Shown one piece after another: positions 10,294 to 11,661 of a DNA stretch of 64,000 nt; the stretch's first letter is position 1, and each line of letters opens with the position of its first letter. The DNA is taken from NCBI GenBank assembly GCA_945882015.1, contig CAMCVM010000004.1, forward strand, positions 35,473 to 99,472, read 5' to 3'. The notes under the pieces are model-generated. The model had not been told where the DNA came from and did not search any database. It saw only the letters and a list, made by a program, of their open reading frames with translations. This stretch comes from a candidate division TM6 bacterium GW2011_GWF2_32_72 (GTDB lineage: Bacteria; Babelota; Babeliae; Babelales; CAIQNR01). The translations under genes were made by a program, and so were the position numbers.

Positions 10294-11661
10294 TTACAAT
10301 GGCAAGAGATCATTAACCATAATCATATGATCTCTTCGTGGCCCGATAGAAATATAGCTAATAGGCACACCACATAATGTTTCTATTTTTTTAACAAAAG
10401 CACGAGCTTCTTCTGGAAGTTGACTCAGCTTTTTTGATTCTTTATTGATTGGTGTTCTACTCCAACCTGGCAAGGTAATATAACGTGGTTCAATCTTGAG
10501 TGCGTCTTTAATATTTGCTGGAATATAATCATAATTTTTTCCATCAATAACATAATCGTAGCAGATCTTAATTTCATCTAATGTATCAAGCTCATCTAAC
10601 TTACTAAGCACCAAAGAATCAATACCATTAAGCAAGATAGCTTGTCGAATCATCACAAGATCTATCCATCCATGCCGCTCATTAGGAATATCACCACAAT
10701 ATGCTTTATGGGCCGCTTTAAGTTTATTTAAAATTTCTTTATCTTTAATTTCTGCTGGTAGTGGACCTGCTCCAATTAAAGTAGTGTAAGATTGAACAAC
10801 TCCCAATACATGACCAATTTTATTTGGACCAACACCAGCTCCAGTTAAAATTCCTGCTGCAATAGTACTAGAAGAACTCACATAAGGATAAGTACCCATT
10901 GAAACATCATAAAAAGTTCCTTGGGCCCCTTCAAAAATTACTGCTTTGCCTTGAATTAACATTTTATTAAGTTCAAGTTCAATATCATCCTTAACAAATG
11001 GTTTTAAACGTTTTGCAAATGCTGTGTATTCTTTTAAAATTTCTTCAAAGACAAATGGGGTTTCATTAAAAATATTAACAAGCATTGCATTAGCACATTT
11101 TAAATCTTCTTTAAGAACCTTCTTAAAACGCTCTTGGTCAAGTAAGTCAGCAATACGAATACCGATACGTAATCGTTTGTCTGCTGCTGCCATGCCAGAA
11201 CCTTTACGTGAGCCAACATCAACAATACTATGGTACTGTTTAAGCATCAAATCATCTAACTTTTTATGATACGGCATTACTAGCTGAGCACGTGCAGAAA
11301 CCCATAGACGGCCATCAACCTTAAGACCCTTTTCTATAAGATTATCAATTTCTGCAAAGAGTACTTCAAGATCTATTTCCATACCGGCAGTTAGATAACA
11401 TTGTGTATTTTTTCGGATAATACCAGATGGTAACAATACAAAATTAAAGTCGTTTTCTTTGCTTTTTACAACTCGATGACCTTTTGCACTGCCGCCTTGA
11501 GAACGAACATTAATTGCTATTCTTTCTGCTAGGTAATCGACTATTTTCCCAACTCCCCCACCCCAGCCGGTTGCTACTACAATAATACCGCGGGCGCTTC
11601 TTGCTGCTAAAGAATTTGATAATAAAACAGCTATTACTAAATACAATAGTTTTTTCTTCAT
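10294..11661 (-). CDS. Adenylosuccinate synthetase (PurA)-family protein, divergent, with N-terminal signal peptide
   Basis: 455 aa. Collinear with PurA: FEGAQGTFYD, GTYPYVSSS, SKLDELD and GVPISYISIGP match. The N-terminus MKKKLLYLVIAVLLSNSLAARSA is signal-like and several catalytic motifs are altered (see findings). Confidence 0.8.
   Translation of the reverse strand: MKKKLLYLVIAVLLSNSLAARSARGIIVVATGWGGGVGKIVDYLAERIAINVRSQGGSAKGHRVVKSKENDFNFVLLPSGIIRKNTQCYLTAGMEIDLEVLFAEIDNLIEKGLKVDGRLWVSARAQLVMPYHKKLDDLMLKQYHSIVDVGSRKGSGMAAADKRLRIGIRIADLLDQERFKKVLKEDLKCANAMLVNIFNETPFVFEEILKEYTAFAKRLKPFVKDDIELELNKMLIQGKAVIFEGAQGTFYDVSMGTYPYVSSSSTIAAGILTGAGVGPNKIGHVLGVVQSYTTLIGAGPLPAEIKDKEILNKLKAAHKAYCGDIPNERHGWIDLVMIRQAILLNGIDSLVLSKLDELDTLDEIKICYDYVIDGKNYDYIPANIKDALKIEPRYITLPGWSRTPINKESKKLSQLPEEARAFVKKIETLCGVPISYISIGPRRDHMIMVNDLLPL

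What the first reader, a model, noticed from the sequence alone, without database searches (positions are those of the whole stretch)
10294..11661. Signal-peptide-bearing adenylosuccinate synthetase homologue with degenerate catalytic motifs (possible exported pseudoenzyme)
Seen: the ORF is collinear with PurA. FEGAQGTFYD, GTYPYVSSS and the guanine-specificity SKLDELD are kept. It starts with MKKKLLYLVIAVLLSNSLAARSA, a Sec-type signal-like segment absent from cytosolic PurA. The P-loop reads GWGGGVGKIVD, whereas E. coli (recalled from memory) has QWGDEGKGKIVD, so the equivalents of Asp13, Glu14 and Lys16 are lost and the loop is one residue shorter. GGHNAGH becomes GGSAKGH. GTTGRGIGPAYEDK becomes GSRKGSGMAAADKR. 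The aspartate/IMP-binding TTGRRRRTGW becomes DIPNERHGW. Established: Asp13, His41, Thr129, Thr300/301 and Arg303/305 are required for PurA catalysis. Inference: this is not a functional adenylosuccinate synthetase. It may be a repurposed, probably exported, nucleotide-binding protein, which would be unusual and possibly host-directed.
Basis: partly seen in the sequence, partly recalled or inferred. Interest (0 to 1): 0.65.

Follow-up and report, generated by a model that had tools for sequence, protein, structure and literature searches.

The report
Exported, catalytically dead PurA homologue
An intracellular parasitic bacterium (order Babeliales) keeps under strong selection a copy of the purine enzyme adenylosuccinate synthetase that has gained a secretion signal and lost the residues its reaction needs, so it most likely does a new, non-enzymatic job outside the cytoplasm, although databases still label it as the enzyme.

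Summary
Window 10294-11661 (-) encodes a 455-aa, full-length PurA-fold protein (Pfam PF00709, E 3e-121; AlphaFold pLDDT 88.7; TM 0.84-0.92 to solved PurA). Its N-terminus is a Sec-type signal: MKKK, an 11-residue hydrophobic core, then SNSLA|A. The active site is degenerate: D13G, K16V, a P-loop one residue short, N38A, and the aspartate loop (T300/T301/R303/R305) gone. It is not a one-off or a decaying gene. It belongs to a monophyletic clade of about 35 proteins (100% bootstrap), some named Candidatus Babeliales. Of the 30 aligned members, 28 carry the signal-like N-terminus and all 30 lack the aspartate loop. dN/dS is 0.05 for the mature part and 0.46 for the signal. The guanine-recognition residues (D333, S414, G416) and the dimer/phosphate motif DKRLRIGIR are nearly invariant. 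Best reading: an exported, dimeric, non-catalytic PurA derivative that probably still binds a guanine nucleotide. Its cellular role is unknown. Public annotation as "adenylosuccinate synthase" is probably wrong. In passing, related intracellular bacteria encode catalytically intact PurA with classical signal peptides. I found no paper on either.

The parts
10294..11661 (-). CDS of the PurA-like protein (455 aa)
   Evidence: ORF list. PF00709 full length, E 3.4e-121. AF2 model pLDDT 88.7. Foldseek TM 0.84-0.92 to solved PurA.
11602..11661 (-). Predicted Sec-type signal peptide, residues 1-19/20: n-region MKKK, h-core LLYLVIAVLLS, c-region NSLA|A
   Evidence: Hydrophobic 10-mer KD 3.24, against a maximum of 1.87 in 91 canonical PurA. 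h-core is 11 aa; the family range is 6-18. AF2 predicts helix 2-19, then strand 25-31. dN/dS is 0.46 here against 0.05 in the mature part. The cleavage site is inferred from the -3/-1 rule only.
11665..11671 (-). Shine-Dalgarno AGGAGAG upstream of the ATG
   Evidence: Sequence. The same element precedes the MKK start in L093, L006, L007 and L010.
11695..11728 (-). Conserved upstream element TGTTTACA-N9-TTTTGAGGCAGACTGTC, a promoter or regulator site specific to this gene
   Evidence: Invariant columns across 7 family loci in an otherwise poorly conserved spacer. TTTTGAGGCAGACT occurs exactly only here in the window.
11752..11791 (-). Terminator-like hairpin after the Band_7 gene: 11-bp stem AACCCTGGATT/AATCCAGGGTT, followed by a T-rich run
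   Evidence: RNA fold -36.6 kcal/mol, z -3.0. Comparable G+C hairpins lie in the same spacer of L007 and L097.
11536..11568 (-). Degenerate P-loop GWGGGVGKIVD (canonical QWGDEGKGKIVD): D13G, E14G, K16V, one residue shorter, K18 kept
   Evidence: Alignments to Yersinia and E. coli PurA.
11476..11496 (-). GGSAKGH (canonical GGHNAGH/GGNNAGH): N38A; H41 retained as H62, followed by R63 in place of T42
11173..11214 (-). Remnant of the IMP 5'-phosphate loop, GSRKGSGMAAADKR (canonical GTTGRGIGPAYEDK): T128G, T129S, G130R, R131K
11155..11181 (-). DKRLRIGIR motif: equivalents of K140, R143 (K162, R165; >=90% in the family) and R147 (R169; invariant), plus family-specific R163/L164
   Evidence: In E. 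coli, R143 reaches into the partner subunit's IMP site (established knowledge; R143L mutant structure 1cg3 listed).
10666..10692 (-). Remnant of the aspartate-binding loop, DIPNERHGW (canonical TTGRRRRTGW): T300, T301, R303, R305 lost; R306-G308-W309 kept
   Evidence: lost in 30/30 family members. The role of R303 is stated in PMC8342488.
10585..10605 (-). SKLDELD guanine-specificity motif (K331, D333)
   Evidence: D333 30/30 and K331 24/30 in the family.
10339..10350 (-). SIGP (S414-G416-P417 equivalents), second half of the guanine pocket
   Evidence: S 30/30, G 30/30, P 28/30.
11800..12786 (-). Upstream neighbour: SPFH/Band_7 membrane protein
   Evidence: PF01145, E 2e-43. It lies next to the PurA-like gene in 8 of 9 distinct family loci.
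12824..13267 (-). NfeD-like partner of the SPFH protein
   Evidence: PF01957, E 8e-12. Conserved synteny.

Best explanation
The gene encodes a Sec-exported derivative of adenylosuccinate synthetase that no longer catalyses the PurA reaction.

Proposed mechanism:
1. The N-terminal signal (MKKK, an 11-residue hydrophobic core, a small-residue c-region) takes the protein across the inner membrane. Signal peptidase I probably cleaves it near SLA|A.
2. The mature protein keeps the complete PurA fold and the dimer-interface motif DKRLRIGIR, so it is probably a homodimer.
3. It keeps the residues that recognise the guanine base (K331, D333, S414, G416, P417) and the P-loop G-x-G-K. It has a basic residue (R63) next to H41. 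It therefore probably still binds GDP/GTP or a related guanine nucleotide.
4. It lacks the catalytic base D13, K16 and N38, and the whole aspartate loop. It therefore cannot form 6-phosphoryl-IMP efficiently and cannot add aspartate.
5. It acts as a non-catalytic binding protein (a pseudoenzyme) in the periplasm or beyond. The bacterium makes no purines and takes nucleotides from its host.

Shown here: homology and fold, the residue changes, the signal-like N-terminus and its conserved start, family-wide conservation, purifying selection.
Inferred: export, cleavage, dimerisation, nucleotide binding, absence of activity.
Unknown: the partner or ligand, and whether the protein leaves the periplasm.
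For: - Fold and homology.
- Residue map against E. coli PurA: D13G, K16V, N38A, T300G, T301D, R303P, R305E. Kept: H41, Q224, R143, R147, K331, D333, S414, G416.
- NCBIfam: the purA equivalog TIGR00184 scores 375.6, below its cutoff of 395.55. PRK01117 scores 407.5, just above its cutoff of 402.
- Start and signal: SD + ATG, no alternative start, and the same arrangement in four other family loci. 28/30 relatives carry a basic-N, hydrophobic-core N-terminus; none of 91 canonical PurA does. Core length is 6-18, typically 11-12, which is the signal-peptide range and too short for a membrane anchor.
- Selection: dN/dS is 0.050 for the mature part and 0.46 for the signal, against 0.039 (Band_7) and 0.035 (CorC) for neighbouring genes.
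- Family: a monophyletic clade with 100% bootstrap on a long stem. Only about 10 clusters at 50% identity among 1.84 billion representatives. Members are named Candidatus Babeliales.
- Biology: Dependentiae lack nucleoside biosynthesis and import host nucleotides. They have Sec and type II secretion components. 44% of C. destructans CDS carry signal peptides (PMC4776705; PMC6561590).
- No PurB homologue and no second PurA in the window or in the fetched family loci.
Against: - No dedicated signal-peptide predictor, no ligand docking and no experiment was available. Export, cleavage and nucleotide binding all rest on sequence features.
- Arg residues at +2 and +5 after the predicted cleavage site (A|ARSARG) are unfavourable for Sec export in E. 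coli.
- Guanine-pocket residues could be conserved for structural reasons. One family member (P0142) has lost the P-loop GK and D333 yet is otherwise conserved, so the family's function may not need a nucleotide.
- Basal family members keep D13, K16 and H41, so some chemistry may persist in parts of the family.
- Related signal-bearing PurA proteins have intact active sites, so export does not by itself imply loss of activity.
Confidence: 0.68

Rival explanations
1. Neofunctionalised enzyme. The protein still uses GTP (or another NTP) and a nucleoside monophosphate but transfers to a different acceptor, or it acts as a GTPase or kinase. On this reading the aspartate loop was replaced rather than simply lost.
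For: - The guanine pocket, P-loop GK, H41, Q224, T129S/T239S and R143 are retained.
- Basal members keep D13 + K16 + H41.
- Purifying selection is as strong as on housekeeping genes.
- There is precedent for PurA homologues with altered substrates: PurZ uses dGMP + ATP (PMC8342488).
Against: - In this ORF and its crown group, D13 and K16 are replaced by G/S/N and V/I/L/T with no consistent substitute.
- The former aspartate-loop region is the least conserved part and carries 40-100 aa insertions in several subclades. That is not how a new substrate site normally looks.
- P0142 lacks any P-loop.
Confidence: 0.15
2. Membrane-tethered cytoplasmic protein. The N-terminal hydrophobic segment is an uncleaved anchor, and the PurA-like domain sits on the cytoplasmic face, working with the neighbouring NfeD-SPFH membrane scaffold.
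For: - The NfeD-Band_7-PurA-like gene order is kept in 8 of 9 distinct family loci, including the deepest branches, with a gap of only 14 nt in L096.
- It is absent from 79 canonical purA loci.
- Basic residues follow the hydrophobic segment.
- By the positive-inside rule the soluble domain of the SPFH protein is probably cytoplasmic (my reading of its N-terminus).
Against: - The KKK/KK N-terminus places the N-terminus in the cytoplasm, and so the domain outside.
- Hydrophobic cores of 6-18 residues, typically 11-12, are too short for a stable anchor.
- Band_7 is followed by a terminator-like hairpin, and the PurA-like gene has its own conserved upstream element. Co-transcription is therefore not required.
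- The wider neighbourhood (transketolase, CorC, RpoD, DnaG) is also syntenic, so the gene order may only reflect a stable genome.
Confidence: 0.12
3. It is an ordinary, active adenylosuccinate synthase with a divergent sequence, as public annotation says.
For: - Full-length PF00709 match.
- NCBIfam PRK01117 score of 407.5, just above its cutoff of 402.
- Sources name cluster members 'adenylosuccinate synthase'.
Against: - Positions that are 99-100% invariant in the canonical PurA sequences compared (N38, G127, T128, T129, P135, Y137, K267, G298, T301, R303, R305, E14) are changed.
- D13 and K16 are lost.
- The TIGR00184 score is below its cutoff.
- The Sec signal is present.
- The lineage lacks the rest of the pathway (PMC4776705), and no PurB is nearby.
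Confidence: 0.03
4. It is a decaying pseudogene left over from a lost purine pathway.
For: Catalytic residues are lost in an organism without purine synthesis. One MAG in the same 90% cluster has the gene split in two (P0125/P0126).
Against: - The 455-codon frame is intact.
- dN/dS is 0.05 against an orthologue with dS 0.85.
- 35 intact homologues span down to 43% identity, with 36 invariant columns.
- The AF2 model is confident.
Confidence: 0.02

Closest known systems
Adenylosuccinate synthetase PurA (EC 6.3.4.4; E. coli P0A7D4, PDB 1ade/1cg0 series; Pfam PF00709)
   Same: - Same fold over the full length (TM 0.85-0.92, 37% identity).
- Same guanine-recognition motifs: (S/T)KLD and SxGP.
- Same P-loop G-x-G-K, H41 and Q224.
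- Same dimer-interface arginines, R143 and R147.
   Different: - Has an N-terminal Sec signal.
- Lacks D13, E14, K16 and N38, and lacks T300/T301/R303/R305.
- The P-loop is one residue shorter.
- Sits in a genome without the purine pathway.
- Forms a separate long-branch clade.
PurZ / PurZ0 (phage 2-aminoadenine pathway; PDB 6fm1, 7odx, 7vf6)
   Same: A PurA homologue diverted from AMP synthesis. This shows that the fold tolerates a change of substrate.
   Different: - PurZ keeps a working active site and the aspartate loop, and uses dGMP + ATP.
- This protein scores only 77.9 bits against the PurZ model, whose cutoff is 300.
- Structurally it is much closer to PurA than to PurZ (TM 0.5-0.57).
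Signal-peptide-bearing but catalytically intact PurA of Babeliales / Chlamydiota-like MAGs (P0338 = MCK4650999.1, P0293, P0297, P0305, P0306, P0146, P0147 and others; found here, undescribed as far as I could find)
   Same: - N-terminal Sec-type signal directly before strand 1 of the PurA fold.
- Same broad PVC-type branch of the PurA tree.
- At least one is from a Babeliales MAG.
   Different: - All catalytic motifs are intact: Q[FW]GDEGKGK, GGNNAGH, GTTGRGIGP, TTTGRKRRxGW.
- They are not next to NfeD-Band_7 (L094, L099).
- They are not specifically sister to the degenerate clade in the NJ tree.
Organelle-targeted eukaryotic AdSS (for example plant plastid AdSS, PDB 1dj2/1dj3)
   Same: Precedent for an N-terminal targeting extension on a PurA-fold protein. 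Long non-hydrophobic extensions are seen in P0194 and P0270.
   Different: Those are transit peptides on active enzymes that work inside a nucleotide-containing compartment. That plant AdSS is plastid-targeted is from my own knowledge, not tested here.
Pseudoenzymes in general (for example iRhoms, pseudopeptidases)
   Same: Fold and many ligand-contact residues are kept, catalytic residues are lost, purifying selection is strong, and a binding or regulatory role is presumed.
   Different: In the literature I searched, no pseudoenzyme derived from PurA, and no exported one from purine metabolism, has been described.

Membership tests
Adenylosuccinate synthetase (PurA, EC 6.3.4.4) | PurA fold / PF00709 homology over the full length | tested here: met
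   PF00709 E 3.4e-121, profile positions 1-416 of 416. Foldseek TM 0.84-0.92 to PurA structures.
Adenylosuccinate synthetase (PurA, EC 6.3.4.4) | P-loop GDEGKGK with catalytic base Asp13 and Lys16 | tested here: not met
   The sequence is GGGVGK: D13G, E14G, K16V, and one residue shorter. Only G15, G17 and K18 are kept.
Adenylosuccinate synthetase (PurA, EC 6.3.4.4) | GG(H/N)NAGH with Asn38 (IMP phosphate) and catalytic acid His41 | tested here: inconclusive
   H41 is kept (H62). N38, which is 100% conserved in the canonical sequences compared, is Ala.
Adenylosuccinate synthetase (PurA, EC 6.3.4.4) | IMP loop GTTGRGIGP (Thr128/Thr129, Pro135) and Thr239 | tested here: not met
   The sequence is VGSRKGSGM: G127V, T128G, T129S, G130R, R131K, P135M. 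T239 is Ser.
Adenylosuccinate synthetase (PurA, EC 6.3.4.4) | Aspartate-binding loop TTGRxRRxGW (Thr300/301, Arg303, Arg305) | tested here: not met
   The sequence is GDIPNERHGW. All four residues are lost, here and in 30/30 family members.
Adenylosuccinate synthetase (PurA, EC 6.3.4.4) | Guanine specificity: (S/T)KLD (Lys331, Asp333) and S414-x-G416-P417 | tested here: met
   SKLD and SIGP are present. In the family, D333 30/30, S414 30/30, G416 30/30.
Adenylosuccinate synthetase (PurA, EC 6.3.4.4) | Score above the curated equivalog cutoffs | tested here: inconclusive
   PRK01117 scores 407.5 against a cutoff of 402 (just passes). TIGR00184 purA scores 375.6 against a cutoff of 395.55 (fails).
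Adenylosuccinate synthetase (PurA, EC 6.3.4.4) | Cytoplasmic protein starting 2-5 residues before strand 1 | tested here: not met
   There is a 24-residue extension with signal-peptide character.
Adenylosuccinate synthetase (PurA, EC 6.3.4.4) | Pathway context: PurB and an IMP supply in the same genome | not testable with these tools
   No PurB in the 64-kb window or in the fetched family loci. The literature says Dependentiae lack nucleoside biosynthesis (PMC4776705). The whole genome could not be searched.
Adenylosuccinate synthetase (PurA, EC 6.3.4.4) | Enzyme activity: IMP + Asp + GTP -> adenylosuccinate | not testable with these tools
   Requires a biochemical assay.
Sec-type (SPase I) signal peptide | Basic n-region, 7-15-residue hydrophobic h-region, polar c-region with small residues at -3/-1, no lipobox Cys | tested here: met
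   MKKK / LLYLVIAVLLS / NSLA|A, with no Cys in residues 1-30. Family h-cores are 6-18 residues. The test was heuristic only; SignalP was not available. Arg at +2 and +5 is atypical.
Sec-type (SPase I) signal peptide | Demonstrated export and cleavage | not testable with these tools
   Needs reporter fusions, fractionation or N-terminal sequencing.
PurZ (succino-amino-deoxyadenylate synthase) | Score above the NF038379 cutoff, with a PurZ-type active site | tested here: not met
   77.9 bits against a cutoff of 300. TM is only 0.5-0.57 to PurZ structures.
Pseudoenzyme (operational definition) | Homologue of an enzyme that lacks essential catalytic residues yet is kept by purifying selection | tested here: met
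   Residue losses. dN/dS 0.05. A conserved clade of 35 sequences. Absence of activity itself was not measured.

The most novel reading that the evidence does not exclude
Export of PurA-fold proteins may be a host-manipulation strategy of energy-parasitic intracellular bacteria (Babeliales and chlamydia-like lineages).

- The signal-bearing intact enzymes would be secreted and push host IMP towards adenylosuccinate/AMP, feeding the ATP pool that the parasite imports.
- The degenerate Babeliales family, including this ORF, would be a derived, secreted pseudoenzyme acting on the same host node. It could sequester guanine nucleotides or IMP. Alternatively it could form inactive heterodimers with the host's AdSS through the conserved R143/R147 interface.
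Probability: 0.12. Interest if true: 0.85.

Novelty: new variant of a known kind. Interest (0 to 1): 0.6.

Why it matters
Three reasons.

1. It would be the first described pseudoenzyme derived from adenylosuccinate synthetase, and an unusual case of a core purine-metabolism fold being sent out of the cytoplasm. The host lineage is a poorly understood phylum of obligate intracellular parasites in which nearly half the proteome carries signal peptides and most exported proteins have no known function.

2. It is an annotation trap. The protein just passes one NCBI equivalog cutoff, so it is labelled "adenylosuccinate synthase" in public records. Metabolic reconstructions of Dependentiae/Babeliales MAGs may therefore wrongly credit them with the IMP-to-AMP step.

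3. With the signal-bearing intact PurA proteins found in passing, it gives a testable evolutionary series: cytosolic enzyme, then exported enzyme, then exported pseudoenzyme. It also suggests host purine-nucleotide balance as a target of these parasites.

Tried and rejected
- **Genome-contig scan with the family alignment.** The chosen peptide patterns also match canonical PurA, so 79 of the 80 loci were ordinary purA. Only L012 (= P0007) was a family member. The 79 loci later served as a negative control for SPFH synteny.
- **hflK-hflC-yjeT-purA in E. coli as a sign of ancient SPFH-purA linkage.** Rejected: none of the 79 canonical purA loci, including two Chlamydiae MAGs, has an SPFH or NfeD gene within 6 kb.
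- **NfeD-Band_7-PurA-like as one operon.** Weakened: there is a terminator-like hairpin after Band_7, and the PurA-like gene has its own conserved upstream element.
- **Sigma-54 or general promoter reading of that element.** The GG-N10-GC spacing is not conserved across loci, and the motif is unique in the window.
- **Consensus promoter/terminator scan.** No more sites than in shuffles.
- **Lipoprotein reading.** There is no conserved lipobox Cys.
- **Anti-phage defence.** PADLOC gave only a 38-residue hit at E 4e-4.
- **Disulfide hallmark of export.** C88 and C367 are also present in canonical cytosolic PurA, so they are uninformative.
- **T42R as compensation for loss of K16.** R/K at position 42 in 18/22 members without K16 against 4/8 with K16. 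This is suggestive only.
- **afdb50 fold search for named relatives.** The library was not available.
- **Literature searches for any description of the family.** Nothing relevant. I found no open paper that lists the E. coli catalytic residues. Only R303 and the aspartate loop are cited from PMC8342488. The roles of D13, K16, N38, H41, T129, T239, R143, K331 and D333 rest on my own knowledge of the Honzatko/Fromm structural work, and on the existence of K16Q, R143L and R303L mutant structures.
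Full report

Yes. The window has a 455-codon ORF at 10294-11661 on the minus strand. The protein matches Pfam PF00709 (adenylosuccinate synthetase) from end to end: res 27-447 against profile positions 1-416 of 416, E 3.4e-121. 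It also matches solved PurA structures, best Yersinia 3hid at E 1e-86 and E. coli 1ade at 8e-83. An AlphaFold2 model built on 30 relatives is confident (pLDDT 88.7, pTM 0.88). It shows a helix at residues 2-19, then the first strand at 25-31. Foldseek places the model on PurA structures with TM 0.84-0.92.

**2. Residue-level check**

I translated E. coli purA from NC_000913 and aligned it with the ORF and 31 relatives. Numbering is E. coli mature numbering.

| Site | Change in this ORF |
|---|---|
| P-loop QWGDEGKGK | becomes GW-GGGVGK: G12 deleted, D13G, E14G, K16V; G15, G17, K18 kept |
| GGHNAGH | becomes GGSAKGH: H37S, N38A; H41 kept (H62) |
| IMP loop GTTGRGIGP | becomes VGSRKGSGM: T128G, T129S, G130R, R131K, P135M |
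| T239 | Ser |
| Q224 | kept |
| Aspartate loop TTGRRRRTGW | becomes GDIPNERHGW: T300, T301, R303, R305 all lost; R306-G308-W309 kept |
| Guanine determinants K331, D333, S414, G416, P417 | all kept |
| Dimer/IMP-phosphate arginines R143, R147 | both kept |

Many of the changed positions are 99-100% invariant in the canonical PurA sequences compared: E14, N38, G127, T128, T129, P135, Y137, K267, G298, T301, R303, R305. PMC8342488 states that R303 contacts the IMP ribose and the aspartate substrate, and that the corresponding loop contacts aspartate. The roles of the other residues are from my own knowledge of the E. coli enzyme. K16Q, R143L and R303L mutant structures exist.

On the NCBIfam models the protein sits on the boundary. 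PRK01117 scores 407.5 against a cutoff of 402. The purA equivalog TIGR00184 scores 375.6 against a cutoff of 395.55. This explains why sources name it "adenylosuccinate synthase".

**3. Is the N-terminus real, and is it a signal?**

- A Shine-Dalgarno AGGAGAG lies 4-10 nt upstream of the ATG.
- The only other in-frame start codon before strand 1 is TTG at codon 6, which would still keep the hydrophobic core.
- The same SD-plus-MKK start is seen in four other family loci. In L006 the database's longer gene call starts upstream of it.
- The segment has the classical n-h-c layout: MKKK / LLYLVIAVLLS / NSLA|A. There is no lipobox cysteine.
- On inspection, 28 of the 30 aligned family members carry such a segment. 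It is conserved in character but not in sequence. None of 91 canonical PurA hits has one: their best 10-residue hydropathy is at most 1.87, against 2.06-3.70 in 29 of the 30 family members.
- Hydrophobic cores are 6-18 residues, typically 11-12. That is the signal-peptide range and too short for a membrane anchor.
- Against the 91%-identical orthologue P0001, dN/dS is 0.46 for codons 1-24 and 0.050 for the rest. This is the pattern expected of a signal peptide joined to a constrained domain.
- Caveats: no dedicated predictor was available. Arg at +2 and +5 after the predicted cleavage site would be unfavourable in E. coli.

**4. What is it part of?**

- A search of 5.8 billion proteins found about 30 relatives with the same two features, at 40-91% identity.
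- A profile search of 1.84 billion 50%-identity representatives added five full-length members (P0136-P0139, P0142) and showed that the family is small, about 10 clusters.
- In neighbour-joining trees the 35 sequences form one clade with 100% bootstrap on a long stem. The clade lies next to the PVC/Chlamydiota-type PurA sequences.
- Members of the query's own 90% cluster and P0019 are named Candidatus Babeliales bacterium. The window is therefore from a member of the Dependentiae (TM6, Babelota).
- This phylum consists of obligate intracellular parasites of protists. They lack nucleoside biosynthesis and import host ATP and nucleotides. They have Sec and type II secretion components. In the cultured C. 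destructans, 44% of CDS have signal peptides (PMC4776705; PMC6561590).
- The window itself is rich in signal-like N-termini.
- No PurB homologue and no second PurA is present in the window or in the fetched family loci.

**5. Pattern of loss within the family**

- The aspartate loop is gone in 30/30 aligned members. Its place is the least conserved region and holds 40-100 aa insertions in two subclades.
- N38 survives in 1/30.
- D13 survives in 12/30 and K16 in 8/30. These are mainly basal members such as P0026 (WTDDGKGK), P0020 and P0137. Catalytic residues were therefore lost stepwise, after the aspartate site went.
- Conserved positions: D333 30/30, S414 30/30, G416 30/30, K18 29/30, G15 29/30, H41 24/30, Q224 24/30, R143 27/30, R147 30/30, K140 29/30.
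- The family has added a near-invariant R163-L164 inside the motif DKRLRIGIR.
- One member, P0142, has lost the P-loop GK and D333. Nucleotide binding may therefore not be essential to the family's role.

**6. Selection**

Against P0001 (dS 0.85) the gene has dN/dS 0.060. Its neighbours score 0.039 (Band_7), 0.035 (CorC) and 0.26 (NfeD). It is not a decaying pseudogene.

**7. Surroundings**

- The gene follows NfeD and an SPFH/Band_7 gene on the same strand. A small signal-bearing ORF, CorC, RpoD and DnaG lie beyond it, and transketolase lies upstream.
- NfeD-Band_7-PurA-like is kept in 8 of 9 distinct family loci, including the deepest branches. The gap is 14 nt in L096.
- It is absent from 79 canonical purA loci. 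The E. coli hflKC-yjeT-purA arrangement is therefore a coincidence.
- Three things argue against an obligatory operon. Band_7 is followed by a terminator-like hairpin (window 11752-11791). The PurA-like gene is preceded by its own conserved element, TGTTTACA-N9-TTTTGRGGCAGACTGTC (11695-11728), with columns invariant in 7 loci, and TTTTGAGGCAGACT has no other exact match in the window. The whole neighbourhood is syntenic, so gene order alone says little.
- By the positive-inside rule the SPFH domain is probably cytoplasmic, while the KKK N-terminus of the PurA-like protein predicts an outside location. This is inference.

**8. Best explanation and rivals**

Best (0.68): a Sec-exported, probably dimeric, catalytically dead PurA derivative that probably still binds a guanine nucleotide. 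It works as a binding protein in the periplasm or beyond.

In an energy parasite that imports host NTPs across its inner membrane, host nucleotides must pass through the periplasm. A nucleotide-binding protein there is therefore not absurd. This point is inference.

Rivals:
- A neofunctionalised enzyme (0.15).
- A membrane-tethered cytoplasmic partner of the SPFH scaffold (0.12).
- An ordinary active PurA (0.03).
- A pseudogene (0.02).

**9. Noticed on the way**

The profile search and a follow-up search turned up about 20 PurA proteins with classical cleavable signal peptides and fully intact catalytic motifs. Examples of the cleavage sites are P0293 ...SYAQA|AEP, P0297 ...GTAHA|TG and P0306 ...SLLHA|EK.

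- One, P0338, is from a Babeliales MAG. It sits in a different genomic context (L099).
- P0146 has a good SD before its signal.
- These proteins fall in the same PVC-type branch as the degenerate clade but are not resolved as its sister.
- Export of PurA may therefore predate, or be independent of, the loss of catalysis.
- I found no paper describing either group.

**10. Verdict**

It is a new variant of a known kind: a pseudoenzyme/exported derivative of the PurA family, confined to Babeliales, and currently mis-annotated as the enzyme. Interest is moderate to high (0.6). The biology is surprising and testable, but function, localisation and ligand are still inferred from sequence alone.

Noticed in passing
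Proteins P0146, P0147, P0185, P0286-P0289, P0291, P0293, P0296, P0297, P0299, P0303-P0307, P0338, P0381; loci L094:6001-7371, L099:8001-9380: About 20 PurA homologues from Babeliales / chlamydia-like MAGs carry classical cleavable Sec signal peptides (AQA|A, AHA|T, LHA|E) but have fully intact catalytic motifs. This suggests an exported, apparently active adenylosuccinate synthetase. P0338 is named Candidatus Babeliales and lies in a different context from the degenerate family.
   Followed up: partly
window 11695-11728 (-): A conserved element, TGTTTACA-N9-TTTTGRGGCAGACTGTC, lies about 35-65 nt upstream of the PurA-like start. Its columns are invariant in 7 loci whose spacers are otherwise unalignable, and TTTTGAGGCAGACT has no other exact match in the window. 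It is a gene-specific promoter or regulator site of unknown type.
   Followed up: partly
window 11752-11791 (-): A perfect 11-bp inverted repeat with an 18-nt loop and a T-rich tail lies right after the Band_7 stop codon. It looks like a terminator, and the consensus scan missed it because of the long loop. G+C hairpins occupy the same spacer in L007 and L097.
   Followed up: partly
P0015-P0018, P0021, P0023, P0024 (about 80-100 aa); P0020, P0022, P0030, P0031, P0036 (about 40-60 aa); aligned to query residues ~307-328 (window ~10678-10743): Two family subclades carry large lineage-specific insertions exactly where the aspartate-binding loop used to be. P0014 and P0136 carry a further ~50-aa insertion near residue 200.
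   Followed up: no
P0142 (448 aa, Logan contig of 8.3 kb): This family member has no P-loop GK (GWCNFYPAISS) and reads NGLN instead of SKLD, yet it is otherwise conserved and carries a signal. The family's function may not require a nucleotide.
   Followed up: no
window 11473-11475 (R63) versus 11551-11553 (V37): Position 42 (Thr in canonical PurA, next to His41) is Arg/Lys in 18 of 22 family members that lack Lys16, but in only 4 of 8 that keep it. This may be charge compensation at the phosphate site. It is not statistically convincing.
   Followed up: partly
L001 (E. coli NC_000913 4402038-4405985) versus window 10294-13267: E. coli has hflK-hflC-yjeT-purA, that is, SPFH genes just upstream of purA. 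This superficially mirrors NfeD-Band_7-PurA-like here. None of 79 other canonical purA loci shows it, so it is probably a coincidence.
   Followed up: yes
Cluster of the query protein: P0125/P0126 (MFS8506829.1 / MFS8506830.1), NBP01711.1, MCF7900210.1: Public records name these proteins 'adenylosuccinate synthase/synthetase'. In one Babeliales MAG the gene is split into 79-aa and 384-aa pieces, either a frameshift or an assembly error.
   Followed up: no
window 46948-51363 (+) and elsewhere (624-1235, 17413-18804, 23337-25852, 59577-62116): About half of the larger ORFs in the window start with a basic-then-hydrophobic signal-like N-terminus. They include a run of small ORFs at 49458-49955 and 50043-50648 whose N-termini resemble each other (MKKQFLAIGLLLSC... 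/ MTKQCLAIALLLSC...). This fits the large secretome reported for Dependentiae.
   Followed up: no
window 9367-9789 (+): A small ORF lies convergent with the PurA-like gene. It has an internal MMKK + LLLLLL signal and a poly-Q run and has no Pfam match. An ORF of similar size sits at the same position in most family loci.
   Followed up: no
window 5689-8001 (+): The RpoD homologue has a ~250-residue N-terminal extension rich in Lys/Ala/Pro-Val repeats, unlike ordinary sigma-70 region 1.1.
   Followed up: no
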